64,000 nucleotides of DNA from an uncultured Alphaproteobacteria bacterium (GCA_902595855.1 CACJRY010000008.1:4966-68965), one strand, 5' to 3'. Counted from the stretch's first letter, positions 6,748-57,535 are shown. Made by a program: numbers and translations. Notes: a model not told the origin generated them from the letters alone.

Positions 6748-7686
6748 ATGACTCAAATAAAACCAACTGCAGGACAAACAACACCACGCTTTGCTGACAT
6801 AGCAACTTTTTTTCGCTTACCGATAGTCAAAGATTTAAATCAATTAGATTATTGTATCTGTGGCATACCTTGGGATGGAGGAACAACAAATCGACCAGGG
6901 GCAAGACATGGGCCAAGAGAAATTAGAAATGCATCTTCACTTATAAGAACATATCATCCTTCCTCATTAAAAAGTCCTTATGATAAATTTCAAATTGCTG
7001 ATATTGGTGACTGTCCAGTAAATCCAGCTGATCTCCAAGATTCACTCAAAAAAATTACAAATTTTTATAATTCAATTGTTGAGTCAAACACTATACCGCT
7101 TTCTATAGGAGGTGATCACTTAGTTTCACTTCCTATACTAAGAGCACTGGCTAAAAATAAACCTGTAGGTATGTTTCAATTTGATTCCCATTCTGATACT
7201 TGGGATACCTATTTTGGAGGTTTTAAATATACCCACGGAACACCCTTTAGAAGAGCAATTGAAGAAAATCTGATTGATCCCAAAAAATATGTCATTGTAG
7301 GTTTAAGAGGAGGTCTTTATGATCCTGATGATTTGACATGGGCTATTGAACAGGGAATTACAATTATTACAACAGACAAGTTTTATGAAATTGGAATGGC
7401 AGAGTCTATAAAAATAATCAAAGATACTATCGGCGATACCCCTACATATTTTACTTTTGATATTGATGGCATAGATCCAACGTATGCTCCTGGGACTGGC
7501 ACTCCTGAAGTTGGTGGGATGAATGTACATGAAGCTCAACTACTAATAAGAAATTTAAAAGATTTAAATTTTATAGGTGCTGACGTTGTTGAAGTATCTC
7601 CTCCTTTTGATGTAAATAATATGACATCACTTGTTGGTGCAACAGTAGCTTTTGAAATACTTTGCACTATGACTAAAACAAATTAA
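6748..7686 (+). CDS. Ureohydrolase of the agmatinase / guanidino-acid hydrolase family
   Basis: Mn-ligand motifs GGDHLVS, FDSHSDTW and FDIDGIDPTYAPGTGTPEVGG. Confidence 0.85.
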   Translation: MTQIKPTAGQTTPRFADIATFFRLPIVKDLNQLDYCICGIPWDGGTTNRPGARHGPREIRNASSLIRTYHPSSLKSPYDKFQIADIGDCPVNPADLQDSLKKITNFYNSIVESNTIPLSIGGDHLVSLPILRALAKNKPVGMFQFDSHSDTWDTYFGGFKYTHGTPFRRAIEENLIDPKKYVIVGLRGGLYDPDDLTWAIEQGITIITTDKFYEIGMAESIKIIKDTIGDTPTYFTFDIDGIDPTYAPGTGTPEVGGMNVHEAQLLIRNLKDLNFIGADVVEVSPPFDVNNMTSLVGATVAFEILCTMTKTN

Positions 7687-8875: not shown

Positions 8876-8924
8876 CGCATATAATTAATACTTTAATAAA
8901 AACTTAAGACAAGATTTTATTTTT

Positions 8925-10873: not shown

Positions 10874-10877
10874 TTAG

Positions 10878-12853: not shown

Positions 12854-12859
12854 AAAAAT

Positions 12860-14023
12860 TTAATTCTTTGTTTTATGTGGATCTGCAGCATCACGAAGAC
12901 CATCTCCGACATATACAAAAGTTAATATTAAAACAACTAAGAAGAAGACAGGTATAAAATACCATTGGTAATTTAATAATACATCTGCCTTTGTAGCATT
13001 TTGTAAGAGAACACCTAATGAATTTACAGGTTCTCTTAACCCTAAACCTATAAAGCTAAGGGCTGTTTCAGATAACAACATGTAAGGAAAACTTATAACC
13101 AGATCAACAATTATGTAGCTTGTAAAACTTGGTAAAAGATGTCGGATAATAATATGAGTTGATGAAGCACCACACATTTTAGCTGCCAAAATATATTCCT
13201 GACTTCTTTCACTTAGTAAATGGGTTCGAACACGTCTTGCTAAAGTTGGCCAAGATATCAAACCTAGCAAACAGGATATAAAGAAAAACCTAAGTTCTGA
13301 ACTCCATTCAAGGGGCGCAAAAGCTGCTAGACACATAAATAGAGGTATGGGGGGTACAGTTCGAATGGCATCTGTAAACATTTGCAACAAACTATCAATC
13401 CAGCCGCCATAATATCCTGAGATACCTCCTATAATTAGAGATAAAACAAAAGATATAAATACTCCCAATGTACCAACTGCTAATGAAATATATATTGCAC
13501 TTAAGGTTCTGCTAAATAAATCTTTTCCAGCTTTATCAGTGCCAAATAAGTGGATTCCGCCCTCTTCAACACCAAATAAATGTGTATTAAATGTTAGCCC
13601 AGGAATTGTAAAATCTAATGCCTTACCAGGAAGATTAATACTATAATTAAAATATTTATATTCCCAACCCTTAACAAAAAAATAAACATAGCGTCTTTTT
13701 TCTGTATCTGTTTTATAGACCCATCTGAAATTTGTATCAGCTCCTCTATATTTTGTTAAAGTATGCAAAAAAGGTCTAGGGGAAAAACCATTTTCATCCC
13801 AAAACATTGGAATTTGTGGAGCACCGTTTTCATAATCTTTATCACGTCCGGCAATTGTTGGATCATATGGAGATAAAAAACCAGAAAAAAGACTGCAAAC
13901 TATCATGAATAACAAAATAGAACCTGCAATCATGGCTGAACGGTTTCCAAAGAAACGAGTTCTAACCAATTGCATTTGAGTGGCTGTATAATATGCTTCT
14001 TTCTTTTTTGTACTAACCTCCAC
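12860..14023 (-). CDS. ABC transporter permease (OppC/DppC-like)
   Basis: 387 aa, multi-TM. Its position in the operon fits BPD-type transport permeases of the peptide family. Confidence 0.85.
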   Translation of the reverse strand: MEVSTKKKEAYYTATQMQLVRTRFFGNRSAMIAGSILLFMIVCSLFSGFLSPYDPTIAGRDKDYENGAPQIPMFWDENGFSPRPFLHTLTKYRGADTNFRWVYKTDTEKRRYVYFFVKGWEYKYFNYSINLPGKALDFTIPGLTFNTHLFGVEEGGIHLFGTDKAGKDLFSRTLSAIYISLAVGTLGVFISFVLSLIIGGISGYYGGWIDSLLQMFTDAIRTVPPIPLFMCLAAFAPLEWSSELRFFFISCLLGLISWPTLARRVRTHLLSERSQEYILAAKMCGASSTHIIIRHLLPSFTSYIIVDLVISFPYMLLSETALSFIGLGLREPVNSLGVLLQNATKADVLLNYQWYFIPVFFLVVLILTFVYVGDGLRDAADPHKTKN

Positions 14024-17351: not shown

Positions 17352-18881
17352 ATGAAGAAATCAGTTTTATTTTTATGTGCAGATCAGTGGAGGTGGGACT
17401 GTTTTGGTTTTATGAAACATAAGAATGTTTTAACTCCAAACATTGATAAGTTAGTAAAAAAAAGTACTGCTTTTACATCACACTATGCAGGCATCGTGCC
17501 TTGTGGTCCATCAAGAACAACTATGTTGACAGGATTATACCCTTTCATTCATCGTTCAGTTACCAATGGTGCGCCCTTAGATAAACGTTTTACAAATATT
17601 GCAAAAGAAGTTCGCAAAATCGGTTATGAACCAAACTTATATGGTTATACCGATACATCGTGGGATCCAAGATTTTTAGATCCTAAAGATGAAAAAAATT
17701 TTACATATGAATCACCTATGGAAGGATTCAATACTAAATGTCTTTTACCAGGAAGTGAACCAGAAGCTTGGGCTAAACATTTAAATAATAATGGTTTCAA
17801 AATAAATCACGCATCAGAATTATATAAAAGTCGTCAAGCAATAAAGGGTAAAGCTTTTATTCATGAACCTTATAATATACCAACTGAATTTTCTGATACA
17901 GCTTTTTTAGCAGATAGAGCAATCAAAGATTTATTATTAGAAAAAAATTCTTTTTTTAAACATGTATCTTTTTTAAAACCTCATCCACCTTTTCATGTTG
18001 CTGAACCTTGGTTTAGTCAAGTAAATCCTGATGATATCGATTTGCCAGCCTCAAATAATTCATTAGAAGAGCTTTCAGAAAGGCATCCATTACTTAAGGA
18101 GCTTTCTAAAAAATTTCAAAATGAAAAAAATTTTACTGAGATGAGGTTTTCAGAACTAACTGAAAAAGATATTAAAAATATTAAAAGTGTATATTTCGGA
18201 ATGTGCGCTGAAGTAGATCATAACATTGGTAAAATTTTAAATGCTTTAGAGACCTCTGATCAAATCAATAACACAATGATTATTTTTACAAGTGATCATG
18301 GGGAAATGTTAGGTGAAAACACTTTGTGGGGAAAATTGGGTTGGTGGGATTCATCCTATCGTATTCCACTAATTATTCATGTGCCAGGTCAACAGCATAC
18401 ATTTGTAAATGATATGACAGAATCTGTTGATCTAGCTCCAACTATATTAGATTGGTTAGGTGCAGAAATACCACTTGATTGGAACGGAAGATCACTACTA
18501 AAATATGTAAAAAATCAAAAAAATGAAATACCACCAAAAGATTACGTAGTTTTTGATTATGATTTTAGAGAATGGACATCTTTTGTAAAAAATAAAAAAC
18601 TTGCGCCAGAAGAATGTAATTTATCTGTAATTAGAACTACTAAATGGAAGTATGTACATTTTCCTTCAATGCCTTCATTGCTTTTTAATATGGATGAAGA
18701 CCCATGTGAAGTTAATAATCTATCCGAGTTACCAAAATACCAATCTATTAAAAGTGAACTTTTATCCAAATTATTAAGTCACCGCATGCTTCATCAAGAG
18801 AGACAATTATCAAACACTATGCTATCTTCAAATGGTGTTAAAACAAATTCTGGCCCATTTAATAGAAAGCAAAATAATTGA
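17352..18881 (+). CDS. Cys-type sulfatase (formylglycine-dependent) with no signal peptide
   Basis: N-terminal LFLCADQWRWD, sulfatase signature CGPSRTTMLTGLYP (C-x-P-S-R-x3-L/M-T-G), and SDHGEMLGE. Confidence 0.85.
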   Translation: MKKSVLFLCADQWRWDCFGFMKHKNVLTPNIDKLVKKSTAFTSHYAGIVPCGPSRTTMLTGLYPFIHRSVTNGAPLDKRFTNIAKEVRKIGYEPNLYGYTDTSWDPRFLDPKDEKNFTYESPMEGFNTKCLLPGSEPEAWAKHLNNNGFKINHASELYKSRQAIKGKAFIHEPYNIPTEFSDTAFLADRAIKDLLLEKNSFFKHVSFLKPHPPFHVAEPWFSQVNPDDIDLPASNNSLEELSERHPLLKELSKKFQNEKNFTEMRFSELTEKDIKNIKSVYFGMCAEVDHNIGKILNALETSDQINNTMIIFTSDHGEMLGENTLWGKLGWWDSSYRIPLIIHVPGQQHTFVNDMTESVDLAPTILDWLGAEIPLDWNGRSLLKYVKNQKNEIPPKDYVVFDYDFREWTSFVKNKKLAPEECNLSVIRTTKWKYVHFPSMPSLLFNMDEDPCEVNNLSELPKYQSIKSELLSKLLSHRMLHQERQLSNTMLSSNGVKTNSGPFNRKQNN

Positions 18882-18887
18882 ATAGAC

Positions 18888-19940
18888 ATGTTAACTACTG
18901 TTATCGGCGCTTACCCAAAACCTAATTACCTAAAAATTACAGATTGGTTTAATGCAAAAGGTGGAACAGACACAGCTAACCCAACAAAATTCTATAATGA
19001 TGAAATAAGAAAAATGGGCAACAATGCAGATAAGATTTTTAAAAAAGCAGCAGAAGATGTAATTAAAGATCAATTAGATTGTGGTATCGACATAATAACA
19101 GACGGTGAAATTAAAAGAGAAAACTACATTCATTATCATTGTAGATATTTAAATGGCGTTGATTTTAATAACCTTACAGAAAAAGTAGCAAGAACTGGCA
19201 ATTATAAATGTTGGTTGCCAACAATAACAGATAAAATATCAGCAACAGAACCTTTCTTGGTTGATGAATGGAAAAGTAATCAAAGTATATCTAGCAAACC
19301 TGTGAAGGTTACCATTCCTGGACCAATGACAATTACAGACACAATAGCAAATTCTTATTACAAATCAGATGAAGAGATGGGATATGATTTAGCGATTGCC
19401 ATTAATACTGAAATCAAAAGATTAGTTGACGCTGGGTGTAAATATATACAAGTTGATGAACCTCTTTTTGCACGAAAACCAGATAATGCTCTTAACTTTG
19501 GGATTAATAATCTTGAAAAATGTTTTGAAGGCATTAGAGATAGTAGTATTGAAAAAATCACACATATTTGTTGTGGCTATCCTGATAAAATTGATGCAAT
19601 TGACTATCCAAAAGCGCCTTTAGATTCATATAAGAAAATTGCGAAAGCATTAGATAATTCAATTATTGATAGCGTCTCAATTGAAGATGCGCATCGTTAT
19701 AATAATTTGAGCTTACTATCTGATTATGAACAGACAAAAGTAATTTTTGGTGTTATCAAAATTGCCAGTTCTTCGATTGAAACTGAAGAAGAAATTGAAA
19801 ATAGAATTAATGAAGCTCTTAAATTTATTTCAAAAGAGCAACTTATTTTGGCTCCAGATTGTGGGCTTGGACATTTATCTAGAGAACTTGCAATTCAAAA
19901 ATTGAAGATAATGTCTTCAGTGGCAAGAAATTTTAATTAA
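18888..19940 (+). CDS. Short cobalamin-independent methionine-synthase-like protein (MetE C-terminal-domain fold, Zn alkyl transferase)
   Basis: 350 aa with DGEIKRENY, IQVDEP, ITHICCGYPD and APDCGL (His/Cys...Cys Zn-ligand pattern). It starts 6 nt after the sulfatase stop. Confidence 0.75.
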   Translation: MLTTVIGAYPKPNYLKITDWFNAKGGTDTANPTKFYNDEIRKMGNNADKIFKKAAEDVIKDQLDCGIDIITDGEIKRENYIHYHCRYLNGVDFNNLTEKVARTGNYKCWLPTITDKISATEPFLVDEWKSNQSISSKPVKVTIPGPMTITDTIANSYYKSDEEMGYDLAIAINTEIKRLVDAGCKYIQVDEPLFARKPDNALNFGINNLEKCFEGIRDSSIEKITHICCGYPDKIDAIDYPKAPLDSYKKIAKALDNSIIDSVSIEDAHRYNNLSLLSDYEQTKVIFGVIKIASSSIETEEEIENRINEALKFISKEQLILAPDCGLGHLSRELAIQKLKIMSSVARNFN

Positions 19941-20014
19941 TAAGTATAGTGCAGTCTTGATCTTTCCTTGGTATTAGATATTTTTATCTCTTAATAATAT
20001 GATAATATTGATTG

Positions 20015-21079
20015 ATGGCTAATCATAATTCGATTTTAGAAGTTACTACAAAAAACCTTCAGTATAATTATAAAAAGTTATCTAGGTTAGCCAATAAATC
20101 AATTTGTGCTGCAACAATTAAATCAGATGCATATGGTACAGGTGTTTTTAATGTTTTTGACGCCCTCTACAAAGTCAACTGTAGACATTTTTTTGTAGCA
20201 ACAACTCAAGAGGCACTAGAAATAAGAAAAAAAAGATCAATTGCTAATATTTATGTATTAAATGGTTTAGAGAATAATAATATCTCTGTTTTTAGCAAAT
20301 ATAAAATTATACCAATTTTAAATGATATAGATGAATATAATTACGTTTCTAAAAATATAAAAAAATATAAAAATTTAAAATTTGGATTACATGTCGATAC
20401 AGGAATAAATAGACTTGGTATCAACTTCAAAGAATTTTTAGGATTAAAATTTGAAAATAATATTCATATTTTGATAAGTCACCTAGCAAGCTCGGATGAA
20501 TCTAAGAACTATTATAATGCTATTCAAAATACAAAATTTAGACAAGCGATTGATCTACAATTAAATGCTAAAATTAAAAGTCTTTCCAATTCATTTGCTT
20601 TAATTTTGGGAAAAAATTTCCACTTTGATTTAGTTAGGCCTGGAATTTCTTTATATGGTGGTCACCAAAATACAAAAATGAAAAAAATAATTAAACCTGT
20701 TGTTACATTAAAGGCAAAGATACTACAGATTAAAGAAATTGGTAAAAATGAATACATTGGTTACAATCAAACCTACAAAACAGTAAAAAAAATAAAAGTA
20801 GCAGTAATCGGTATTGGATACGGAGATGGAGTATCAAGATTATTAAGCAGTAAAGGAAAAGTTTTTTATAAAAAGAATAGCTATAAAATTTTAGGACGTG
20901 TTTCCATGGATACCATTACGATTGATATCACAAAAAATAGTCATCATTTAAGGGTAGGTAAATATATGGAAATATTAAATCATACCTTTGGAATTGATAG
21001 TTTAGCACAACAATGCAATACAATACCGCACGAAATTCTTACATCTATTACTAAAAGAGTAAAGCGTGTCTATATTTAA
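20015..21079 (+). CDS. alr: Alanine racemase
   Basis: PLP-lysine motif AATIKSDAYGTG, LVRPGISLYG and GRVSMD. I chose ATG 20015 over the adjacent TTG 20012. Confidence 0.85.
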   Translation: MANHNSILEVTTKNLQYNYKKLSRLANKSICAATIKSDAYGTGVFNVFDALYKVNCRHFFVATTQEALEIRKKRSIANIYVLNGLENNNISVFSKYKIIPILNDIDEYNYVSKNIKKYKNLKFGLHVDTGINRLGINFKEFLGLKFENNIHILISHLASSDESKNYYNAIQNTKFRQAIDLQLNAKIKSLSNSFALILGKNFHFDLVRPGISLYGGHQNTKMKKIIKPVVTLKAKILQIKEIGKNEYIGYNQTYKTVKKIKVAVIGIGYGDGVSRLLSSKGKVFYKKNSYKILGRVSMDTITIDITKNSHHLRVGKYMEILNHTFGIDSLAQQCNTIPHEILTSITKRVKRVYI

Positions 21080-21082: not shown

Positions 21083-21943
21083 TTATAAACCGTGTAATTG
21101 ATTATAGTTTGATGCAACAGGAGATATCCAATTATCTAGAACTTTAGATCTAGTTTTGAAAACTGACACTCTTAAAGGAAAGCATTGCGCTGTGTCTGAT
21201 GAATGTTCAGAACTACAATCACCTCCAGGACAAGCGGACAATGCTCCAAGTAAATCTATTTCAGCAAAAAATTCTAAAAAATCACCTGGTCTAACTGGAC
21301 TTGCCTTCATAAAATATTGATGTGTATCAGGGGTAAAGCCTGTGCACATAAAAACATTAAGAACATCATGAACTAAAATTTCAGCTTCTTCTTTTTGTAA
21401 ATCTTTTTCTTTAACTAGAGCTCTTGTGAGATTTGAATGGCAACAATAATGGTATTGATTATTTGTAATTAAATTATTTGTATATGGATCACACCTTGTC
21501 CCAATAACGTCGTGTACTGAACCCCCATCTTTATCAAATCCATACCAATCTAGAGTGTCATAAGTGATCGTAGCAAGTGGTCTCATATAAGGAAAGGTGC
21601 TCCACATTTGATCTTTCAGCGATAGATGTGTTCCGTGTAAAGCTCGAGTTTTTCCAGAATAAAACTTTTCTTTATAATTATTTGCATTAAATAAATTTAG
21701 ATCCCCAACTTGAGGACCATCAATACTCTCTATTCTAAAAAAATATCCTGCTTTTATCTCAAAACATTTTGCATCTCTGGGTGGAATTATCACTTCGTCT
21801 ATTTTTTCTAACTCTTCTCTTGCTTGCTGGTAACTATCCCAATATGGAATTTTTAATGTATCGTTTGGATAACATATAACAGGTGATTTCAATTTTCGAC
21901 TCTCCCCATCAGAAGGTTTTTGATGTTGGGAATATTTTTTCAT
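21083..21943 (-). CDS. DUF1989 (urea-carboxylase-associated / carboxyguanidine-deiminase-like) family protein
   Basis: The pattern IPPRDAKCFEIKAGYFFRI...GPQVGDLNLFNA...TRA...RCDP...CHSNLTRAL...NVFM...PGDFLEFFAEIDLLGALSACP matches my recollection of DUF1989 conserved blocks. Confidence 0.65.
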   Translation of the reverse strand: MKKYSQHQKPSDGESRKLKSPVICYPNDTLKIPYWDSYQQAREELEKIDEVIIPPRDAKCFEIKAGYFFRIESIDGPQVGDLNLFNANNYKEKFYSGKTRALHGTHLSLKDQMWSTFPYMRPLATITYDTLDWYGFDKDGGSVHDVIGTRCDPYTNNLITNNQYHYCCHSNLTRALVKEKDLQKEEAEILVHDVLNVFMCTGFTPDTHQYFMKASPVRPGDFLEFFAEIDLLGALSACPGGDCSSEHSSDTAQCFPLRVSVFKTRSKVLDNWISPVASNYNQLHGL

Positions 21944-21969
21944 ACTTAATTTCTTTGATAAGAAAACAT

Positions 21970-22947
21970 CTAATTATATGCAATTACACTTATAATCTCA
22001 AACATAATTGATGCAGCTACCATTGAAGTAATATTATTCTTTTGATCTTTAGTGGGCATTAAACATACAACATCACCGCCAATAACATTCTTATTTTTAA
22101 CAGACTGAATCAAAGCTTTTGCTTCATCAATAGTAAAGCCAGTAAAACTAGGCTCAATGTTTGATACAGCAGGAGCAACAGTGGCATCAAGTGAGTCTAA
22201 ATCAAAAGTAATATAAAGAGGATTATCACCTATTTTGTCTAAAGTTTCTTTGATAACATCATCAATTCCTCTTTTTTTAAATTCATCCATGGTTACTACA
22301 TTGTACCCAAGGTCATAACTTGGTTGCAGCCAATCTAAAGTTCTAGGATTACCACGCATACCAATTTGCATACTAGTTTTTGGATCTATAATTCCTTGTT
22401 CAACTAAATAAGCGCCCCAATGAGCAGCACTTTTTTTTGCACCCATGAAATGATCCAATTGACTAAAGGTATCAGTGTGAGCATCAATATGTAGAAATGA
22501 TATTTTTTTTCCATTTGTTAATTCTAGATTATTACTTCCTAAGCCTTGGAGGATTCCACCTGTAATTGAATGATCTCCACCAATTGAAACAACTGGTTTT
22601 TTTTCTATTGCAATTCTCTCATAAAAATTAGTAATATCTTCAATGCATCGTTCATTGTTATTTGCATGGGGGAGAGCAACATCACCTAAATCAAATATTT
22701 TTTTTTGTTTCCAAGGATTAATATTGAAATCTAAATGTACTCTTCTTAATCCAGCAGATACATGTCTAACAGCTCTCGGGCCTAAATGTTGATCTCTTTC
22801 AGTTGTGCCGTTACCAGTACTGTGAGGTACTCCAACAAGAGCAATATCACATTTTGATATATCTTTTTGATGTTCACATCGAAACAATGTTGGTATCCCC
22901 CACCAATACATGGTCTCCATCATCAACTCATCATTTGAGTTTGTCAT
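21970..22947 (-). CDS. Ureohydrolase (arginase/agmatinase/guanidino-acid hydrolase family), second copy in the window
   Basis: GGDHSITGG, LHIDAHTDT and FDLDSLDATVAPAVS are the Mn-binding motifs. Confidence 0.85.
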   Translation of the reverse strand: MTNSNDELMMETMYWWGIPTLFRCEHQKDISKCDIALVGVPHSTGNGTTERDQHLGPRAVRHVSAGLRRVHLDFNINPWKQKKIFDLGDVALPHANNNERCIEDITNFYERIAIEKKPVVSIGGDHSITGGILQGLGSNNLELTNGKKISFLHIDAHTDTFSQLDHFMGAKKSAAHWGAYLVEQGIIDPKTSMQIGMRGNPRTLDWLQPSYDLGYNVVTMDEFKKRGIDDVIKETLDKIGDNPLYITFDLDSLDATVAPAVSNIEPSFTGFTIDEAKALIQSVKNKNVIGGDVVCLMPTKDQKNNITSMVAASIMFEIISVIAYN

Positions 22948-22957
22948 TGTTATTAGA

Positions 22958-24073
22958 TTAATTTATTGCTGTGCTTGGATCAACAAAATTATAACCCAAA
23001 TCTTCTGCTACAGCTTTGTAAGTAACATTTCCCTGGCAAACATTTAAACCTGCAAGAAAATTGGCATCACTATTTAATGCATCTCGATAGCCGCTTTGAG
23101 CTAATTGTAATACAAAAGGTAATGTTGCTGCATTTAAAGCAAGAGTGGAAGTTCTAGGAACACCTCCTGGCATATTAGCAACACAGTAATGAACAACATC
23201 ATCAATAACATAAGTAGGGTTAGCATGCGTTGTCGGCTTGCTTGTTTCTACACATCCACCTTGATCTATAGCAACATCAACAATTACAGAGCCTCTCTTC
23301 ATGACTTTAAGCATGTCTTTTGTAATTAATTTAGGTGCATTGGCACCTGGAATTAAAACACCCCCAACTAATAAATCAGTTTCAGCAACATAATCTTCTA
23401 AATTTATATCATCTGAAACAAGTGGAATGATACGATCACCAAACTTTGCTTGAAGTTCTTTTAGGCGGGCTTCTGATTTATCAACAATATGAACTTTTGC
23501 TTCCATTCCTGTTGCAATAGTTGCTGCATTTTCACCAACAACACCTCCACCCAATATAAGAACATTCCCAGGATTTACTCCAGGAGCTCCACCAATAAGT
23601 AAACCTCTGCCACCTTGAGGTTTTTCTAAGCTATGTGCTCCAGCTTGAATTGACATTCTTCCTGCTACTGCACTCATCGGTGCCAATAAAGGTAGTCTAT
23701 TATTTTCATCAGTTACAGTTTCATAAGCAATACAAATTGATTTTGAGTCAACTAAGCCTTTTGTCAATTCAGGGGCAGCAGATAAATGCAAATAGGTAAA
23801 TAATATTTGATTTTCTCTTAACATATTTACTTCTTCAGATTGAGGCTCTTTCACCTTCACAATCATGTCTGAGTCGTTGAAAACATCGGCCGCACTTGAA
23901 GCTATTTTGGCACCAGCTTTTTCATAGTCAGCATTTTCAAAACCAGCACCAAAACCTGCATTGTTTTCAACTAAGACTTCGTGTCCATGATTAGTTAGCT
24001 GCTGAACACTTTTGGGAGTAAGTCCAACTCTAGACTCCTGAGCTTTAATCTCAGAGGGAATCCCTACTTTCAT
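22958..24073 (-). CDS. ald: Alanine dehydrogenase
   Basis: 371 aa with MKVGIPSEIK..E.RVGLTP and the NAD motif LGGGVVGENAA. Confidence 0.95.
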   Translation of the reverse strand: MKVGIPSEIKAQESRVGLTPKSVQQLTNHGHEVLVENNAGFGAGFENADYEKAGAKIASSAADVFNDSDMIVKVKEPQSEEVNMLRENQILFTYLHLSAAPELTKGLVDSKSICIAYETVTDENNRLPLLAPMSAVAGRMSIQAGAHSLEKPQGGRGLLIGGAPGVNPGNVLILGGGVVGENAATIATGMEAKVHIVDKSEARLKELQAKFGDRIIPLVSDDINLEDYVAETDLLVGGVLIPGANAPKLITKDMLKVMKRGSVIVDVAIDQGGCVETSKPTTHANPTYVIDDVVHYCVANMPGGVPRTSTLALNAATLPFVLQLAQSGYRDALNSDANFLAGLNVCQGNVTYKAVAEDLGYNFVDPSTAIN

Positions 24074-25413
24074 TATTGTTCCTTGAAGTAATTAGTAATA
24101 CCAGTTCGGAGTTTCTCTATCATTTCATCAATATGTTTTTTTTCTGAAATAAATGGTGGAGCAACAATTAAACAATCGCCAGTAGCCTTTAAACTTAATC
24201 CAGAAGCAAACAAATGTTTAAAGCAAGCGTATCCAGCTTTACCTAAACGTTCATCCATCCTTAGATCAATACCACCCATCATTCCGTATCCTCTAATATC
24301 AACAATGCCCTCAATATCTTTTAAGCTGAATAAGCCATCCAAGAAATATGGTGACATTTCTTTTGCACGGTTGAATAAATCTTCTTTCTCAAAAATATCT
24401 TGCATTGCTAGCCCAGCAGCAACTGAACATGGTATTGCTGAGTACGTATAACCATGGAAAAATTCAATAGCTCCTTTTGGTGCAGCATCAACCATTGAAT
24501 CATAAATATGTTCTCGTGATGCCACGGCTCCAAGAGGTACAACACCATTGGTAATTGCTTTTGCCATTGTCATAATATCAGGCGTTACATCAAATGCTTG
24601 AGCCCCAAATGGTTCACCCATTCTACCCCAACCAGTTATTACCTCATCAAAAATAAGAAGGATGCCATGTTTATCACAGATCTCTCTTAATTTTTTTAAA
24701 TATCCTTTTGGCGGCACTAAAGTTCCAGTGGATCCTGCAACAGGCTCCACAATACATGCAGCAATGTTCTCTCCACCAATGTGCCCTGCAATTCTCTCTA
24801 AATCTTCTGCAAGGTAATCACCTGTTTCAGGTTCACCACGAACAAATTTATTTTCCGGTAAGTGAGTATGTCTTAAATGATGAGTATTAGGCATTAATAT
24901 ACTGGAAAAAGTTTTTCTATTAGCAACCATACCGCCAACCGAAATTCCACCAATATTCATTCCGTGATAACCTCTTTCGCGACCAACAATGTGATGTCGG
25001 TGTCCTTCACCTTTTGCTTTAAAGTATGCTATGGCAGTTTTGATTGCTGTATCAACTGCAGATGAACCACACATAGTAAAAAATATTCTATTTAAATCTT
25101 CAGGAGTATGTTTAGAAATTTTTCTTGCTAATTCAAAAGAACCATTAAAGCCTTGTTGAAAAGGTTGCACGTAGTCAAGTTGTTCAAGTTGTTTATAAAC
25201 AGCTTCTCTAATTTCCTGACGACCATGACCCGCAGGGCTACAAAATAATCCAGAACTTGCATCAATTAATTGATTGCCATGATGATCAGTGTAATACATT
25301 CCCTCAGCTTTAACCATTAGCCTTGGACTATCTTTAAAATCGTGATTGGATGTAAATGGCATCCAATGTTCTTCAAGTGAATTCGGTAATTCGTTTCTAT
25401 TTTCTAAATCCAT
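24073..25413 (-). CDS. Class-III omega-amino acid:pyruvate aminotransferase (taurine- or beta-alanine-pyruvate type)
   Basis: HWMPFTSN..F, GYHG and LIFDEVITGWGRMG, plus the PLP lysine in MAKAITNG. I chose ATG 25413 (MDLENRN...) over the upstream TTG 25425. The stop overlaps the ald start (TAATG). Confidence 0.85.
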   Translation of the reverse strand: MDLENRNELPNSLEEHWMPFTSNHDFKDSPRLMVKAEGMYYTDHHGNQLIDASSGLFCSPAGHGRQEIREAVYKQLEQLDYVQPFQQGFNGSFELARKISKHTPEDLNRIFFTMCGSSAVDTAIKTAIAYFKAKGEGHRHHIVGRERGYHGMNIGGISVGGMVANRKTFSSILMPNTHHLRHTHLPENKFVRGEPETGDYLAEDLERIAGHIGGENIAACIVEPVAGSTGTLVPPKGYLKKLREICDKHGILLIFDEVITGWGRMGEPFGAQAFDVTPDIMTMAKAITNGVVPLGAVASREHIYDSMVDAAPKGAIEFFHGYTYSAIPCSVAAGLAMQDIFEKEDLFNRAKEMSPYFLDGLFSLKDIEGIVDIRGYGMMGGIDLRMDERLGKAGYACFKHLFASGLSLKATGDCLIVAPPFISEKKHIDEMIEKLRTGITNYFKEQ

Positions 25414-25545
25414 AAATGTCCCCAAATAAGCAAAATTTACCTAGCCTTACATCATACAAATGGCTAATCCAAGAGGAATTCTTGCTGTTTTTCTTAATTT
25501 CGTAGGAAAAATTGACGCCCTAGTATAGAAGAAAAAAATTCAATT

Positions 25546-26457
25546 ATGCTAAGCAATAAAGAAGCCCAAATCCCTAATAATTTACTGTCGTTCGCTCAAA
25601 AGTCACCTAATCTATCGGCAGGGATTATATGTGCAAACCACGACTCATCAATGGAATCAGCAAAAAAATCAGTTGAATTAAATCTTATAGAGCCAATTTT
25701 TATAGGAGACAAAAATGCTATCAATGAAAAGGCAGATAAAATTAATTGGGATATAAGTTCTTACAATATTATTAATTCATCAACTGACATCGAAGCAGCT
25801 ACTATTGGTGCTGAATTAGCAAAAGATAATAAAATTAAAATAATGATTAAAGGAAATCTTCACACAGATATATTAATGAAGACTTATTTAAAAAAAGATT
25901 TTGGTCTTATTGAGGGAAAGAGATTAAGTCATATTTGGCATATGACGATCAATAAAGATGATAAACCTCTTTTTATAACAGACGGAGCTTTAAATGTTGC
26001 TCCACGTCTTGATGTAAAAATGCATATACTAAAAAATGTAATTAACTTTGCTAATCAAATAGACATTATGAAACCAAGAGTAGCTATCTTATCGGGAACA
26101 GAAGATCCAATTGAAAGTATGCCAAGTTCAATTGAAGCAAAAGAACTTATGGAACGTGCAACAAAAGAAAATATTAACGCCTACGTTCATGGACCTTTGG
26201 CATTTGATAACGCTGTTTCTCCTGATGCTGCAGCAATAAAAAATATTTCAAATGAAGTTGCAGGAAAAGCTGATATTTTATTAGTACCTAATTTAGAAAC
26301 AGGTAATTCATTATCTAAAATCATGGTTTATTTTATGGGCGCTTGTGCTGCCGGTTTTATTGTAGGAGGCAAGGTTCCTGTTGTGGTGACAAGTCGAGCA
26401 GATAGCTCTGCATCACGTATAGCCTCTATAGCTGCTGCTGTTATAGCAACGCAATAG
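25546..26457 (+). CDS. Phosphate acetyl/butyryl-transferase family protein (short Pta type)
   Basis: 303 aa. MIKGNLHTD, ITDGALNV, NLETGN and VVVTSRADS resemble PTA_PTB family blocks. Confidence 0.75.
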   Translation: MLSNKEAQIPNNLLSFAQKSPNLSAGIICANHDSSMESAKKSVELNLIEPIFIGDKNAINEKADKINWDISSYNIINSSTDIEAATIGAELAKDNKIKIMIKGNLHTDILMKTYLKKDFGLIEGKRLSHIWHMTINKDDKPLFITDGALNVAPRLDVKMHILKNVINFANQIDIMKPRVAILSGTEDPIESMPSSIEAKELMERATKENINAYVHGPLAFDNAVSPDAAAIKNISNEVAGKADILLVPNLETGNSLSKIMVYFMGACAAGFIVGGKVPVVVTSRADSSASRIASIAAAVIATQ

Positions 26458-27359
26458 TGAAACAAAATAAGTTAATTGTAGTTGCTTTATTAGCAATAGG
26501 TGCAACTTTTTTTGGTTCCTTTATGGGAGCAGGAGTAAAATTTCTCTCTGATGATCTTCATCCAATTATAATTTGTTTTTACCGATCTTTAATGGGTCTT
26601 ATTTTAATTACTCCATTTGTAGCAAGAAATAATTTTAAAGCTCTTCACACCAAGAATATGCGTTTACAAATTTTTAGAGCCTCCATAAATATTATCTCAA
26701 TGATCTGCTGGTTTAGTGCAATAGGCATGATGCATTTTGAAAAAGCAACCGCTCTTGGTTTTACAACGCCACTATTTACCACCGTACTTGCCATAGTAGT
26801 TTTAGGTGAAGTCATTCGTTTCCACCGCACTGCCGCACTTTTACTAGGTTTTATAGGAATAATAATCATTATAAGACCAGGTTATGTTCCATTTGAATAT
26901 GGAACAGTGTTGATGCTGATCGCTTCATTTAGTTTTTCTTTTGTGCTAATTTTTGTAAAAAAATTATCTACAACTGACTCTAGTCTCACCATAATTTTTT
27001 ATCATTTATTATACATGACACCTGTCTTTTTTATTTTATCCTTGTTCTACTGGGAAAATATAAATTTAAATCAGTTAATTATTTTTATCTTAATGGGAGC
27101 TTCAGGTTTATTATCCCATTGGTGTTTAGCTCAAGCTTTTAAAATGTCAGACACAACGTTTGTTATGCCATTACAATTTACAAAATTAATTTGGGCTTCT
27201 TTAATTGGGTTGTTTATTTTTGCCGAACAACCAGACATTTGGACATGGATTGGTGGAATTATTATATTTATTTCAGTTGTCTATATAACCTATCGTGAGG
27301 CATTTAAGAAAAAGGGCACAAAAAAACCTATACAAGTTGATCGAGCAATTATTAATTAA
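26457..27359 (+). CDS. DMT superfamily (EamA-like) transporter
   Basis: 300 aa, about 10 TM helices. The GTG start overlaps the pta-like stop (TAGTG). Confidence 0.75.
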   Translation: MKQNKLIVVALLAIGATFFGSFMGAGVKFLSDDLHPIIICFYRSLMGLILITPFVARNNFKALHTKNMRLQIFRASINIISMICWFSAIGMMHFEKATALGFTTPLFTTVLAIVVLGEVIRFHRTAALLLGFIGIIIIIRPGYVPFEYGTVLMLIASFSFSFVLIFVKKLSTTDSSLTIIFYHLLYMTPVFFILSLFYWENINLNQLIIFILMGASGLLSHWCLAQAFKMSDTTFVMPLQFTKLIWASLIGLFIFAEQPDIWTWIGGIIIFISVVYITYREAFKKKGTKKPIQVDRAIIN

Positions 27360-34813: not shown

Positions 34814-34858
34814 ATTTTGTATTTGTTATGAGATACATTTAAAAATATTTCAAAGCAA

Positions 34859-34886
34859 TGAAATTTTATTCAAAAAAATGAATATT
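34859..34886. promoter_or_regulatory. Dyad motif TGAAAttttATTCAaaaaaaTGAATATT in the divergent promoter of SnoaL module A
   Basis: Read directly. A near-identical arrangement occurs at 39041-39069. Confidence 0.4.
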
Positions 34887-34920
34887 GTCTTTTTTAGTTT
34901 ATTAATATAATCAAAATGCA

Positions 34921-37053: not shown

Positions 37054-37057
37054 TAAA

Positions 37058-38050: not shown

Positions 38051-38061
38051 ATAATTAATAT

Positions 38062-55759: not shown

Positions 55760-57535
55760 TTATTGAACAACAGTATCTTTACTATTTATTCCTGCTACTT
55801 CTACTGGCGCTTTCATTGCGTCTCTTCTAAAAGGTTCACCTAATTCTTGATTTAAAATAACTTCTATAAAAGTTGTAATACCATTCATTTGTTCAACACA
55901 GGATGTTTTTAAAGCTTCAGTTAACTCTGATTGAGTTGTAACTTTAACTCCCTTGAACCCACACGCTTCGGCAATTTTTGCATAACTTAATTTTGGATCA
56001 AGTTCAGTTCCAATAAAATTATTGTCATACCAAAGAGTTGTATTTCGTTTCTCTGCACCCCATTGGTAGTTTCGGAAAATAACCATAGTAATATTTGGCC
56101 ATTCCTCTCTGCTGCATGAAGTCATTTCACTCATACTAATTCCAAAAGCTCCATCTCCCGAGAAGCCAATAACAGGTGTATCTGGACATCCAATTTTAGC
56201 TCCTAAAACTGAAGGGAAACCATAGCCACATGGTCCAAACAAACCTGGTGCTAAATATTTTCTTCCTTGCTCAAAAGTCGGATAAGCATTTCCGATTGCA
56301 CAATTGTTACCAATATCACTTGAGATAATTGCTTCTTCAGGAAGACCTGCTTGAATAGCTCTCCACGCCATACGCGGAGACATTCTGTCAGGATCCCTTT
56401 CACGAGAGTCTTTATTCCAGGTAGTACCTTCATCATCCTCTTCATGGTCAAGGCTTGTTAGCGTTTGAAGCCATGCAGATTTAGTTTGATGAATTAAAGC
56501 CTTCCTATCTTCTCTTCCAGCATCTCCTGCACTTGGTGATAATTCACTTAGAATTTGTTTTGCTACTAATTTAGCGTCACCACAAACTCCCACTGTTATT
56601 TTTTTTGCTAATCCGATCCTGTCGGAATTTATATCAACTTGAATAATCTTTGCTTCCTTAGGCCAATAATCTATTCCGTAACCAGGAAGAGTAGAAAAAG
56701 GGTTCAATCTTGTTCCAAGGGCCAAAACTACATCAGCTTTTGAAATTATCTCCATAGCAGCTTTAGACCCATTATATCCAAGAGGGCCCACAGCAAGTGG
56801 ATGCTTTCCAGGAAAACTGTCGTTATGTTGATATCCACACGCAACAGGCGCATCCAATTTTTCTGCTATATTTTTACAATCTTCAATTGCATCAGCAAGA
56901 ACAACACCAGCTCCTGATAATATTACTGGGAATTTTGCATTAGATAAAAGTTGTGCAGCTTTACTTATAGCGGTTGAGCCACCAGACGGTCTCTCAAATT
57001 CAATAATTGATGGTAATTCAATATCAATTACTTGTGTCCAGAAATCTCTTGGTACATTTATTTGAGCAGGAGCCGACCCCCTTTTTGCTTTTAAAATAAC
57101 TCTATTTAAAACTTCAGCCATTCTAGATGCGTCACGCACTTCTTCTTGATAACAAACCATATCTTTAAATAAGTTCATTTGTTCCACTTCTTGAAAACCA
57201 CCTTGACCCATTGTTTTGTTAGCAGCCTGAGGTGTAACTAAAAGCATAGGAGTATGATTCCAATAAGCTGTTTTTATAGGAGTTACTAATCCTGTAATAC
57301 CAGGTCCATTTTGAGCAATACACATAGCAAGTTTGCCTGTTGATCTCGTATAACCATCAGCAATGAGACCACCATTTGACTCATGAGCAACATCCCAAAA
57401 AGTTATCCCCGCTTTTGGGAAAAGGTCTGAAATTGGCATAAATGCTGATCCAATTATTCCAAAAGAATGTTGTATTCCGTGCATTTGTAGAACTTTTACA
57501 AAAGCTTCCTCAGTAGTCATTTTAGCCATCTTCAC
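55760..57535 (-). CDS. xsc: Sulfoacetaldehyde acetyltransferase
   Basis: 591 aa. The N-terminus MTTEEAFVKVLQMHGIQHSFGIIGSAFMPISDLFPKAGITFWD matches my recollection of Xsc almost word for word. ThDP motif GDGAFGISMSEMTS...FRNYQWGAEK. Confidence 0.88.
   Translation of the reverse strand: MKMAKMTTEEAFVKVLQMHGIQHSFGIIGSAFMPISDLFPKAGITFWDVAHESNGGLIADGYTRSTGKLAMCIAQNGPGITGLVTPIKTAYWNHTPMLLVTPQAANKTMGQGGFQEVEQMNLFKDMVCYQEEVRDASRMAEVLNRVILKAKRGSAPAQINVPRDFWTQVIDIELPSIIEFERPSGGSTAISKAAQLLSNAKFPVILSGAGVVLADAIEDCKNIAEKLDAPVACGYQHNDSFPGKHPLAVGPLGYNGSKAAMEIISKADVVLALGTRLNPFSTLPGYGIDYWPKEAKIIQVDINSDRIGLAKKITVGVCGDAKLVAKQILSELSPSAGDAGREDRKALIHQTKSAWLQTLTSLDHEEDDEGTTWNKDSRERDPDRMSPRMAWRAIQAGLPEEAIISSDIGNNCAIGNAYPTFEQGRKYLAPGLFGPCGYGFPSVLGAKIGCPDTPVIGFSGDGAFGISMSEMTSCSREEWPNITMVIFRNYQWGAEKRNTTLWYDNNFIGTELDPKLSYAKIAEACGFKGVKVTTQSELTEALKTSCVEQMNGITTFIEVILNQELGEPFRRDAMKAPVEVAGINSKDTVVQ

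What the first reader, a model, noticed from the sequence alone, without database searches (positions are those of the whole stretch)
21083..25413. Operon coupling an omega-aminotransferase and Ald to a ureohydrolase and a DUF1989 protein: possible guanidino-compound (taurocyamine or guanidinopropionate) catabolism
Four same-strand genes have 0-26 nt spacers: aminotransferase, ald (TAATG overlap), ureohydrolase (intact Mn-ligand motifs), and DUF1989. Ureohydrolases release urea from guanidino compounds and leave a primary amine, which is the substrate class of the adjacent pyruvate-dependent aminotransferase. Ald would recycle the alanine. An ald-tpa pairing and a divergent pta-like gene are typical of taurine loci, so the guanidino substrate could be taurocyamine (2-guanidinoethanesulfonate), giving taurine plus urea. 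3-Guanidinopropionate or 4-guanidinobutyrate, giving beta-alanine or GABA, are equally compatible. DUF1989 proteins are linked to carboxyguanidine/urea-carboxylase chemistry, which reinforces a guanidine theme. To my knowledge a dedicated taurocyamine hydrolase has not been characterised.
Basis: inference. Interest (0 to 1): 0.65.

Follow-up and report, generated by a model that had tools for sequence, protein, structure and literature searches.

The report
Taurine-type operon with atypical ureohydrolase
A streamlined marine alphaproteobacterium keeps an unusual arginase-family enzyme in one transcription unit with genes that look like a taurine-breakdown module, which suggests, without proving, that ocean bacteria harvest nitrogen and carbon from guanidino-sulfonates such as taurocyamine.

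Summary
The four genes are present as described: aminotransferase, ald, ureohydrolase and DUF1989, on the minus strand with spacers of -1, 10 and 26 nt. Tight spacing is normal in this genome: 61% of same-strand neighbours lie within 26 nt.

- **Conserved unit.** pta-eamA | aminotransferase-ald-ureohydrolase. Ald precedes the ureohydrolase in 31 of 31 related metagenome loci.
- **DUF1989 is a passenger.** It follows in only 6 of 31 loci. About 70 orthologues elsewhere have unrelated neighbours.
- **Sulfonate context.** The window holds a genuine Xsc with no pta next to it. The divergent pta's best cultured homologues sit in an Xsc cluster. Relatives carry AprAB next door. This favours taurine-type over beta-alanine chemistry.
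- **Ureohydrolase.** It keeps all six metal ligands and the acid-capping Arg of guanidino-acid hydrolases. The substrate-binding Glu (arginase E277) is Cys in all 120 close homologues, and the GTGTP loop is remodelled.
- **Second enzyme.** A canonical GpuA orthologue lies 14 kb away, so 3-guanidinopropionate is unlikely for the operon enzyme.

Best reading, at moderate confidence: a guanidino-sulfonate (taurocyamine) yields taurine plus urea, and taurine goes to sulfoacetaldehyde. The substrate is untested.

The parts
24073..25413 (-). Class-III omega-amino acid:pyruvate aminotransferase, first gene of the operon. Candidate taurine/hypotaurine(/beta-alanine):pyruvate aminotransferase.
   Evidence: PF00202 at 282 bits and the NCBIfam AptA equivalog at 587 against a cutoff of 500. 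Best PDB match is 4B98, beta-alanine:pyruvate transaminase, 1.7e-116. It is 52% identical to a Thalassospira enzyme beside mmsA in a pyrimidine cluster. It is 54% identical to a Novosphingobium enzyme beside a MocR regulator, an aldehyde dehydrogenase and TauE/SafE. The ATG start at 25413 is seen.
22958..24073 (-). Alanine dehydrogenase (Ald). It regenerates pyruvate and releases NH4+.
   Evidence: TIGR00518 at 500 bits against a cutoff of 392. Its start overlaps the aminotransferase stop by 1 nt. It lies directly upstream of the ureohydrolase in 31 of 31 related loci.
21970..22947 (-). Non-canonical ureohydrolase of the arginase fold, in the GpuA/GbuA-like branch. Cys replaces the E277-equivalent Glu.
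   Evidence: PF00491 at 214 bits, but below both agmatinase cutoffs (164 against 302; 119 against 174). Best PDB matches are GpuA 3NIP at 5.6e-38 and GbuA 3NIO. Foldseek gives TM 0.79 to GpuA at 29% identity. Metal ligands and R68/R69 are conserved. C295 is found in 120 of 120 close homologues, and the loop reads APAVSNIEPSFxGF.
21083..21943 (-). DUF1989 protein, orthologue of Ruegeria pomeroyi SPO0365 (PDB 3DI4). An accessory gene in a variable slot at the 3' end of the operon.
   Evidence: PF09347 at 150 bits. It is 64% identical to 3DI4 over 277 aa without gaps. It is present in 6 of 31 related loci and absent in L089. Orthologues elsewhere have unrelated neighbours. An 11/12 sigma-70-like match lies just upstream at 22001-21973.
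25414..25545 (.). Divergent intergenic region of 132 nt between the aminotransferase operon and pta-eamA. Presumed shared promoter and regulatory region.
   Evidence: Sequence. No Rfam match. The layout is conserved in all longer related loci.
25546..26457 (+). Phosphate acyltransferase (PTA_PTB family). Probable acetyl-phosphate to acetyl-CoA step downstream of Xsc.
   Evidence: PF01515 at 120 bits and NF006045 at 294 against a cutoff of 282. Best cultured homologues (39% identical) head the Azospirillum cluster pta-tctCBA-ALDH-CoA ligase-SoeABC-like-xsc.
26457..27359 (+). EamA/DMT-family transporter, co-transcribed with pta. Substrate unknown.
   Evidence: PF00892 at 116 bits. It overlaps the pta stop by 1 nt. 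It is conserved with pta in the clade. Pelagibacter-type orthologues of the ureohydrolase have a different EamA (25% identical) divergently upstream in 31 of 43 loci.
55760..57535 (-). Sulfoacetaldehyde acetyltransferase (Xsc), about 30 kb away. This is the enzyme that would link the aminotransferase product to the pta substrate.
   Evidence: NF005713 at 1022 bits and TIGR03457 at 947 bits. It is 76-78% identical to annotated Xsc of Azospirillum, Cereibacter and Sinorhizobium. It has no pta beside it.
6748..7686 (+). Second, canonical ureohydrolase: an orthologue of 3-guanidinopropionase GpuA. It is not part of the operon but bears on the substrate question.
   Evidence: 3NIP at 1e-114, gapless over 303 aa. 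It passes TIGR01230 (198 against 174). It carries canonical APGTGTPEVGG and DVVEVSPPFD.

Best explanation
The functional unit is a divergent gene pair: pta-eamA on one strand and aminotransferase-ald-ureohydrolase on the other. DUF1989 is an optional passenger at the 3' end.

Proposed pathway:
1. The ureohydrolase removes the amidino group, as urea, from a guanidino compound with a strongly acidic head group. The most likely substrate is taurocyamine (2-guanidinoethanesulfonate) or hypotaurocyamine. The product is taurine or hypotaurine.
2. The pyruvate-dependent omega-aminotransferase converts this to sulfoacetaldehyde plus alanine.
3. Ald regenerates pyruvate and releases ammonium.
4. Xsc, elsewhere in the window, cleaves sulfoacetaldehyde to acetyl phosphate and sulfite.
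5. The divergent Pta makes acetyl-CoA.

Shown: the gene families, the order and its conservation, the presence of Xsc, the kinship of the Pta type with Xsc clusters, and the active-site residue pattern.

Inferred: the identity of the substrate, the amine specificity of the aminotransferase, co-transcription, and the roles of EamA and DUF1989.

The ureohydrolase belongs to a distinct subfamily in which Cys replaces arginase Glu277 and the GTGTP loop is remodelled. Its exact chemistry may therefore differ from that of textbook guanidino-acid hydrolases.
For: 1. Clade-wide conservation of aminotransferase-ald-ureohydrolase with divergent pta-eamA: L005/L006, L010-L014, L089, L092-L094 and 34 metagenome loci. 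Ald is upstream in 31 of 31.
2. The flanks vary while the core persists. The downstream gene is alr, the MetE-like gene, DUF1989 or a small membrane protein. The upstream neighbour is an SDR or AprAB.
3. Sulfonate context.
   - Xsc scores 1022 bits and has no adjacent pta.
   - Pta homologues sit in an xsc cluster.
   - AprAB lies next to eamA-pta in L092/L093.
   - Sulfopyruvate decarboxylase is present in the window.
4. No aldehyde dehydrogenase that could take malonate semialdehyde turned up in the window ORFs that were scanned.
5. An aminotransferase-Ald pairing is typical of Tpa/Hpa systems (established knowledge: Bilophila, Rhodococcus, Paracoccus). A 54%-identical homologue sits with a MocR regulator, an aldehyde dehydrogenase and TauE/SafE.
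6. The ureohydrolase has intact metal ligands. R68 aligns with GbuA R72, which caps the acid group of the substrate. In human GDAH the equivalent residue, R105, was modelled next to the taurocyamine sulfonate (PMC9772407). Further conserved basic residues are R69, K171 and K172.
7. A canonical GpuA is present elsewhere in the window, so the operon enzyme probably has another substrate.
Against: - Homology alone names the aminotransferase a beta-alanine:pyruvate type: the AptA equivalog, PDB 4B98, and JGI labels.
- The ureohydrolase lacks the Glu that binds the guanidinium in all characterised relatives. Human GDAH, which prefers taurocyamine, retains that Glu (PMC9772407). The change is therefore not explained by a taurocyamine substrate.
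- Linkage to the aminotransferase and ald is seen in only one lineage. Pelagibacter-type orthologues stand alone with EamA, AsnC or SBF genes.
- Short spacers are the genome norm, so shared synteny could be inherited rather than functional.
- Xsc is 30 kb away.
- No paper in the held library reports taurocyamine in seawater or in Pelagibacter.
- The Pta-like protein scores below the PRK11890 cutoff and shows no detectable similarity to the Cereibacter pta beside xsc.
Confidence: 0.4

Rival explanations
1. The adjacency is not a dedicated pathway. Aminotransferase-ald (with pta) is a general omega-amine (taurine, hypotaurine, beta-alanine) module. The Cys-type ureohydrolase acts on a different, still unknown amidino or guanidino compound whose product need not feed the aminotransferase. 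The gene order is inherited synteny in a compact genome.
For: - 61% of same-strand gaps in the window are 26 nt or less.
- The convergent MetE-like gene is conserved alongside the block just as well as the operon genes are.
- Pelagibacter-type orthologues (66-72% identical) sit without an aminotransferase or ald. EamA is divergently upstream in 31 of 43 loci, and some have AsnC or SBF neighbours.
- The remodelled active site (E277 to Cys, T246 to Asn, two-residue insertion) argues for a substrate unlike those of GpuA, GbuA or GDAH.
Against: - The trio stays together in 31 of 31 loci while both flanks and the 3' slot change.
- The ald-ureohydrolase spacer is only about 10 nt.
- The acid-capping Arg is retained.
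- A urea-releasing or amine-releasing step immediately before an amine:pyruvate aminotransferase is chemically coherent.
Confidence: 0.3
2. This is a guanidino-carboxylate route. The ureohydrolase hydrolyses 3-guanidinopropionate or 4-guanidinobutyrate to beta-alanine or GABA plus urea. The AptA-type aminotransferase then makes malonate or succinate semialdehyde, and Ald recycles alanine.
For: - The aminotransferase passes the AptA equivalog, and its best solved relatives are beta-alanine:pyruvate transaminases.
- A 52%-identical homologue sits beside mmsA in a pyrimidine/beta-alanine cluster.
- The best solved relatives of the ureohydrolase are GpuA and GbuA.
- JGI labels homologues guanidinopropionase.
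Against: - A far better GpuA orthologue (1e-114 against 5.6e-38) is encoded at 6748-7686.
- No semialdehyde dehydrogenase was found in or near the operon.
- The divergent partner is a Pta, whose substrate, acetyl phosphate, comes from Xsc and not from malonate semialdehyde.
- The operon enzyme differs from GpuA and GbuA at the substrate-binding Glu and loop.
Confidence: 0.12
3. DUF1989 is an integral fourth enzyme that processes the guanidine- or urea-type product of the ureohydrolase, by analogy with carboxyguanidine deiminase.
For: - Same strand, 26-nt spacer.
- The DUF1989 family includes CgdAB (PMC11271267).
- Weak hits to UAAP2 and UAAP1.
- A few orthologues lie one or two genes from a distant arginase-family gene or a formamidase (L071, L075, L079, L087).
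Against: - It is present in only 6 of 31 related loci and absent in L089.
- The slot it occupies also holds other inserts.
- About 70 orthologues at 61-71% identity in Desulfobacterales, Sneathiella, Pelagibacteraceae and Rhizobiales have heterogeneous neighbours. In Pelagibacteraceae these are hemE, hemH and rho.
- Its scores are far below the UAAP cutoffs.
- A possible promoter of its own lies upstream.
Confidence: 0.05
4. The Cys-type ureohydrolase is catalytically dead or has a non-hydrolytic role such as binding or regulation, because the essential Glu is missing.
For: The Glu equivalent to arginase E277 is described as essential (PMC9772407). It is Cys in every close homologue. Inactive paralogues exist in this superfamily, for example the metformin hydrolase B subunit (PMC11271267).
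Against: All six metal ligands are invariant across 66-100% identity and in more distant Cys-type members. R68/R69 are near-invariant, and an alignable catalytic His (H176) is conserved within the close family. The new loop residues N263 and E265 are themselves conserved. This is the pattern of a working but re-tuned active site. The family is very abundant, with clusters of 1612, 3586 and 792 member sequences.
Confidence: 0.05

Closest known systems
Taurine degradation via Tpa-Ald-Xsc-Pta (Bilophila, Rhodococcus, Roseobacter and Paracoccus type; hypotaurine variant Hpa-Ald)
   Same: A pyruvate-dependent class-III aminotransferase is followed directly by alanine dehydrogenase. A phosphate acyltransferase is divergently adjacent. 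A genuine Xsc lies in the same genomic region. Sulfite-handling genes (AprAB) lie next door in relatives.
   Different: No TauR-type regulator or tauABC/tauKLM lies beside the operon. Xsc is 30 kb away. By homology the aminotransferase is nearest to beta-alanine:pyruvate enzymes. A ureohydrolase as the third gene is not part of any described taurine cluster, to my knowledge.
Guanidino-acid hydrolases GpuA (PDB 3NIP), GbuA (3NIO) and human GDAH/AGMAT
   Same: Arginase fold (TM 0.79 to GpuA). All six metal ligands are conserved. An Arg equivalent to GbuA R72 / GDAH R105 caps the acidic head group. These are the nearest solved relatives.
   Different: Identity is only about 29-35%. The Glu of DVVEVSP is Cys (GGDVVCLMPTKD). 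APGTGTPExGG is APAVSNIEPSFxGF with a two-residue insertion. There are extra conserved lysines near the catalytic His. Scores fall below both NCBIfam agmatinase cutoffs.
Pseudomonas beta-alanine pathway (BauA with BauC/MmsA) and Caulobacter AptA
   Same: The aminotransferase passes the AptA equivalog and matches PA0132 at 1.7e-116.
   Different: No malonate-semialdehyde dehydrogenase is adjacent. Ald and Pta are the partners instead. Compare the Thalassospira locus, which does carry mmsA.
DUF1989 enzymes: carboxyguanidine deiminase CgdAB and the TMAO demethylase Tdm domain; structural-genomics proteins 3DI4, 3ORU and 3SIY
   Same: Pfam DUF1989 domain. 64% identical to 3DI4 (SPO0365). Cysteine-rich motifs are consistent with the Zn site described for this fold.
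   Different: Scores are far below the UAAP1, UAAP2 and Tdm models. It is a single-gene, stand-alone orthogroup with no urea carboxylase nearby. Its function is uncharacterised.

Membership tests
Ureohydrolase (arginase) superfamily | Arginase fold and Pfam PF00491 above threshold | tested here: met
   214.5 bits against a cutoff of 22. Foldseek top hits are GpuA, SpeB and GbuA with TM 0.72-0.79 (model pLDDT 70.7).
Ureohydrolase (arginase) superfamily | Six binuclear-metal ligands (arginase H101, D124, H126, D128, D232, D234) | tested here: met
   H126, D155, H157, D159, D249 and D251 are invariant in A1 and A3.
Ureohydrolase (arginase) superfamily | Glu equivalent to arginase E277 (the DxxE-x-x-P motif), which pairs with the substrate guanidinium | tested here: not met
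   Cys295 aligns with the Glu of GpuA, GbuA, SpeB and 4DZ4. It is Cys in 120 of 120 close homologues, and in 10 of 65 full-length 50%-cluster representatives against 50 with Glu.
Ureohydrolase (arginase) superfamily | Conserved A-P-G-T-G-T-P-x-x-G-G loop (arginase T246) | tested here: not met
   The loop reads APAVSNIEPSFTGF: T to N, P to I, and a two-residue insertion. It is conserved in this form across the family.
Agmatinase SpeB | Score above the NCBIfam equivalog or subfamily cutoffs | tested here: not met
   TIGR01230 at 119.5 against 174.3, and NF002564 at 164 against 302.
Guanidino-acid hydrolases (GpuA/GbuA/GDAH) | Arg from the neighbouring subunit that caps the acidic head group (GbuA R72) | tested here: met
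   R68 aligns with GbuA R72 and with the GpuA 'MRKVH' Arg. It is Arg, or occasionally Lys, in the 120 close homologues. The role of R72 is taken from PMC9772407.
Guanidino-acid hydrolases (GpuA/GbuA/GDAH) | Urea release from a linear guanidino acid | not testable with these tools
   Requires an enzyme assay.
3-Guanidinopropionase GpuA orthologue | High, full-length similarity to P. aeruginosa GpuA | tested here: not met
   The operon enzyme scores 5.6e-38 with gaps. The other window gene, 6748-7686, scores 1e-114 without gaps.
Taurine:pyruvate aminotransferase (Tpa) system | Class-III pyruvate-dependent aminotransferase with an adjacent Ald | tested here: met
   TAATG overlap seen.
Taurine:pyruvate aminotransferase (Tpa) system | Xsc and Pta available to consume sulfoacetaldehyde | tested here: met
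   Xsc at 1022 bits. The divergent PTA_PTB gene has homologues that head an xsc cluster.
Taurine:pyruvate aminotransferase (Tpa) system | Taurine accepted as amine donor | not testable with these tools
   Homology is ambiguous: 52% identity to a homologue in a beta-alanine context and 54% to one in a sulfonate-like context.
Taurine:pyruvate aminotransferase (Tpa) system | Dedicated taurine transporter or TauR regulator in the cluster | tested here: not met
   None lies beside the operon. The window TRAP system shows only 28% identity, for DctM alone, to the Cereibacter TRAP transporter encoded next to xsc.
Carboxyguanidine deiminase (CgdAB / UAAP1-UAAP2) | Score above the TIGR03424 or TIGR03425 cutoffs, plus paired subunits beside a urea/guanidine carboxylase | tested here: not met
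   40.9 against 284.7 and 19.1 against 206. It is a single gene with no carboxylase in the window.

The most novel reading that the evidence does not exclude
The Cys-for-Glu ureohydrolases form an abundant subfamily in Pelagibacter-type and related low-GC marine Alphaproteobacteria. They may be dedicated, high-affinity amidinohydrolases for guanidino-sulfonates (taurocyamine or hypotaurocyamine), or for another strongly anionic amidino compound. In that case a previously unrecognised pool of nitrogen-rich, sulfur-containing dissolved organic matter would be channelled into the taurine/Xsc pathway. The active-site rearrangement (E277 to Cys, a new Asn/Glu loop, extra Arg and Lys) would then be a new way for an arginase-fold enzyme to bind its substrate.
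Probability: 0.3. Interest if true: 0.75.

Novelty: new variant of a known kind. Interest (0 to 1): 0.55.

Why it matters
Streamlined marine Alphaproteobacteria of this kind dominate surface-ocean bacterioplankton and live on small, labile nitrogen and sulfur compounds. Guanidino compounds carry three nitrogens per molecule, yet apart from agmatine and arginine they are barely considered in marine DOM budgets.

If this enzyme feeds a guanidino-sulfonate into the taurine pathway, it would add a substrate class to the marine organosulfur and organic-nitrogen cycles. It would also give a function to a very abundant gene that is currently annotated as 'agmatinase' or 'guanidinopropionase'.

The family also shows that the supposedly essential Glu of ureohydrolases can be replaced while every metal ligand is kept. 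That is of interest for arginase-fold enzymology.

The work further shows that the DUF1989 neighbour is a mobile passenger. The function of this orthogroup, which is 61-90% identical across phyla, should therefore be sought elsewhere.

Tried and rejected
1. **Riboswitch or other known RNA upstream of the operon.** No Rfam hit, either at gathering thresholds over the whole window or at E<=1 over 20.8-27.5 kb.
2. **Operon boundaries from promoter and terminator scans.** Counts were at shuffle level and uninformative, apart from one 11/12 hexamer match upstream of DUF1989.
3. **DUF1989 function from neighbours in 80 GTDB loci.** The neighbours were heterogeneous, with no recurrent partner.
4. **Literature.** The held library contains no paper on taurocyamine in Pelagibacter or SAR11. 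It has nothing on SPO0365 beyond a table entry, and no bacterial taurocyamine hydrolase.
5. **Contexts of distant Cys-type ureohydrolases (P0242, P0248, P0259, P0263).** Contigs were short or the neighbours uninformative.
6. **Aminotransferase specificity from close homologues.** The top 120 are all at least 82% identical and from the same clade. More distant cultured homologues split between beta-alanine and sulfonate-like contexts.
7. **A shared EamA orthologue linking the two ureohydrolase contexts.** The two are only 25% identical, so they are not orthologues.
8. **AlphaFold model.** The fold was confirmed, but the substrate loops (43-74, 159-175, 298-304) had pLDDT below 50. Active-site geometry could not be judged.
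9. **Source contig look-up for the window protein.** Not on record.

Full report
**Observation**

The region 21083-25413 carries four minus-strand ORFs:
- an aminotransferase at 24073-25413. The ATG start gives 446 aa, as in homologues. The mechanical ORF runs on to a TTG at 25425.
- ald at 22958-24073.
- an arginase-family gene at 21970-22947.
- a DUF1989 gene at 21083-21943.

The junctions are a 1-nt TAATG overlap, 10 nt and 26 nt, exactly as reported. Pfam and NCBIfam confirm the families. A PTA_PTB gene (25546-26457) is divergent across a 132-nt spacer. It overlaps an EamA transporter gene (26457-27359) by one base.

The window has about 31% GC and 94.6% coding density. 22 of 36 same-strand gaps are 26 nt or less. 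The spacing is therefore real but is the norm here, and by itself says little about function. Promoter and terminator scans were at shuffle level, and no Rfam family matched.

**Source organism and conservation of the cluster**

The nearest named genomes are uncultured marine Alphaproteobacteria: single-cell genomes AG-426-C22, AG-447-L18, AG-404-D18 and AG-414-E06, and the MAG MarineAlpha5_Bin5.

All of these keep eamA-pta | aminotransferase-ald-ureohydrolase. So do 34 metagenome loci whose ureohydrolase is 75-98% identical. Ald lies directly upstream of the ureohydrolase in 31 of 31 determinable cases.

The flanks change:
- Upstream of eamA is an SDR gene or, in L092/L093, the APS reductase genes aprAB.
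- Downstream is a MetE-like gene, alr, DUF1989, or a small membrane protein of about 174-204 aa.

DUF1989 follows the ureohydrolase in only 6 of 31 loci. It is absent in L089, where the MetE-like gene abuts the ureohydrolase. The conserved unit is thus the trio plus the divergent pta-eamA. DUF1989 occupies a variable slot.

**DUF1989**

The protein is 64% identical over 277 aa, without gaps, to PDB 3DI4. That structure is the uncharacterised SPO0365 of Ruegeria pomeroyi (PMC8319176).

A scan of GTDB genomes returned 80 orthologues at 61-90% identity. Only the six loci from the window's own clade sit near this gene set (L009-L014; L009 is too short to show the upstream genes). The other 70 or so have heterogeneous neighbours. 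They include Desulfobacterales, Sneathiella, Rhizobiales, Oceanospirillales and Pelagibacteraceae. In Pelagibacteraceae the gene lies between hemE-hemH and rho.

Scores against the carboxyguanidine-deiminase-type models and Tdm are far below their cutoffs. Its function remains unknown.

**The sulfonate context**

- The window encodes a genuine sulfoacetaldehyde acetyltransferase at 55760-57535. It scores 1022 bits and is 76-78% identical to annotated Xsc. No pta lies beside it.
- Next to Xsc are a GMC oxidoreductase and a TRAP transporter. By analogy these resemble isethionate modules (inference).
- Sulfopyruvate decarboxylase lies at 7806-8875.
- The best cultured homologues of the divergent Pta-like protein (39% identical) head an Azospirillum same-strand cluster. 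That cluster runs pta-tctCBA-aldehyde dehydrogenase-CoA ligase-SoeABC-like-xsc, so this Pta type serves Xsc.
- No semialdehyde dehydrogenase turned up in the window ORFs that were scanned.

Together with the classical aminotransferase-Ald pairing of Tpa/Hpa systems (established knowledge), this favours taurine or hypotaurine over beta-alanine as the amine.

Sequence alone points the other way. The aminotransferase passes the AptA equivalog and best matches beta-alanine:pyruvate transaminases. Cultured homologues at 52-54% identity occur in both kinds of context:
- a beta-alanine context in Thalassospira, beside mmsA and pyrimidine genes;
- a sulfonate-like context in Novosphingobium, beside a MocR regulator, an aldehyde dehydrogenase and TauE/SafE.

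Specificity is therefore undecided by homology.

**The ureohydrolase**

It has the arginase fold. Foldseek gives TM 0.79 to GpuA at 29% identity, using a model with pLDDT 70.7. All six metal ligands are invariant.

It falls below both agmatinase cutoffs. Its nearest solved relatives are GpuA and GbuA.

R68 aligns with GbuA R72. That residue caps the acidic head group of the substrate. Its equivalent in human GDAH, R105, was modelled next to the sulfonate of taurocyamine (PMC9772407). R69, K171 and K172 add further conserved positive charge. This argues for an anionic guanidino substrate and against agmatine.

Two hallmark elements are changed:
- The Glu of the DVVEVSP motif (arginase E277, described as essential in PMC9772407) is Cys in GGDVVCLMPTKD.
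- The APGTGTPxxGG loop is APAVSNIEPSFxGF, with a two-residue insertion.

Cys is present in 120 of 120 close homologues. Among 65 full-length representatives of 50%-identity clusters, the 10 nearest have Cys and 50 have Glu. This is a discrete, strongly conserved subfamily and not a decayed gene. No characterised enzyme with this pattern was found in the PDB matches or the literature searches.

**A second ureohydrolase**

At 6748-7686 the window encodes a canonical enzyme (APGTGTPEVGG, DVVEVSPPFD). It matches P. aeruginosa GpuA at 1e-114 without gaps over 303 aa. It is the obvious candidate for 3-guanidinopropionase. This makes that substrate unlikely for the operon enzyme.

**Other lineages**

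Pelagibacter-type orthologues of the Cys-type enzyme (66-72% identical) are not linked to an aminotransferase or ald.
- They sit divergently from a different EamA transporter in 31 of 43 loci. It is only 25% identical to the window's EamA.
- Some lie beside an AsnC regulator or an SBF-family transporter.

Linkage to the taurine-type module is therefore confined to one clade. Contexts of more distant Cys-type members were uninformative.

**Conclusion**

The most coherent model, at a confidence of about 0.4, runs as follows:
1. A guanidino-sulfonate, most simply taurocyamine or hypotaurocyamine, is hydrolysed to urea plus taurine or hypotaurine.
2. The product is transaminated with pyruvate.
3. 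Ald recycles the alanine.
4. Xsc and the divergent Pta complete the route to acetyl-CoA and sulfite.

The main rival (about 0.3) is that the ureohydrolase has a different, unknown amidino substrate and that the adjacency is inherited synteny in a compact genome. A guanidino-carboxylate route (about 0.12) is weakened by the canonical GpuA elsewhere and by the Pta/Xsc context. An integral role for DUF1989, and a dead enzyme, are both unlikely (about 0.05 each).

The finding is best described as a new variant of known kinds: a taurine-type operon extended by a non-canonical ureohydrolase. Only enzyme assays can settle the substrate.

Noticed in passing
window 6748-7686 (+): A canonical ureohydrolase that matches P. 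aeruginosa 3-guanidinopropionase (PDB 3NIP) at 1e-114 without gaps. It passes the TIGR01230 agmatinase cutoff and sits next to the sulfopyruvate decarboxylase genes.
   Followed up: yes
window 7806-10873 (-): Sulfopyruvate decarboxylase beta and alpha subunits (7806-8375, 8378-8875), followed by an aldose 1-epimerase (8925-9974) and a second EamA transporter (9971-10873). In MarineAlpha5_Bin5 (L005) the same genes are followed by a PfkB kinase and a 2-hydroxyacid dehydrogenase. This looks like a sulfo-sugar or C3-sulfonate module.
   Followed up: partly
window 50805-57535: TRAP transporter (DctM 50805-52139, small subunit 52136-52747, binding protein 52806-53942), a GMC/choline-dehydrogenase-like oxidoreductase (54155-55756) and Xsc (55760-57535). 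The arrangement recalls isethionate (IseJKLM) modules. The TRAP genes are not close to the Cereibacter TRAP transporter encoded next to xsc.
   Followed up: partly
window 41564-45135 (-): Fused CysN/CysC (sulfate adenylyltransferase plus APS kinase), CysD and CysQ in a row. In relatives (L092/L093) the APS reductase genes aprAB lie next to eamA-pta. Together these suggest sulfite from sulfonates is handled via APS.
   Followed up: no
window 33674-40219: An unusual run of four proteins with SnoaL-like (NTF2-fold) domains, 330-379 aa each, some with two copies. They are interleaved with a MetE-like gene (35926-37053) and a cupin (38062-39033). NCBIfam has no model for them.
   Followed up: no
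window 45184-48436 (+): A Rieske oxygenase related to the glycine-betaine monooxygenase GbcA (weak, 120 bits), followed by a 680-aa OYE/FMN plus FAD oxidoreductase. Possibly a quaternary-amine or N-methyl compound demethylation pair.
   Followed up: no
window 17352-21079 (+): A PehA-like sulfatase/phosphodiesterase (438 bits, below its 900 cutoff), a short MetE-like protein and alanine racemase lie convergent to the operon. The MetE-like gene is the constant downstream neighbour in all relatives. The sulfatase and alr come and go.
   Followed up: partly
L126 6874-7398 (+); L121 6929-7543 (+): In several relatives a small hydrophobic protein of 174-204 aa and unknown family is inserted directly after the ureohydrolase on the same strand, with or without DUF1989. 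The window lacks it.
   Followed up: partly
window 22001-21973 (-): The best sigma-70-like hexamer match in the region (TTGAGA-17-TATAAT, 11/12) lies inside the 3' end of the ureohydrolase gene, about 30 nt upstream of the DUF1989 start. This hints that DUF1989 may have its own promoter. The overall count of such sites is at shuffle level.
   Followed up: no
L070 and L083 (Thioglobus-like and other Gammaproteobacteria), around 4300-13100: In these genomes the DUF1989 orthologue sits between a fused hydantoinase/oxoprolinase (about 1220 aa) and a GMC oxidoreductase, an M24 creatinase-like peptidase and a ferredoxin reductase. This is a possible clue to the real substrate class of this DUF1989 orthogroup. 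These neighbour families were assigned by reading the sequences and were not scanned.
   Followed up: no
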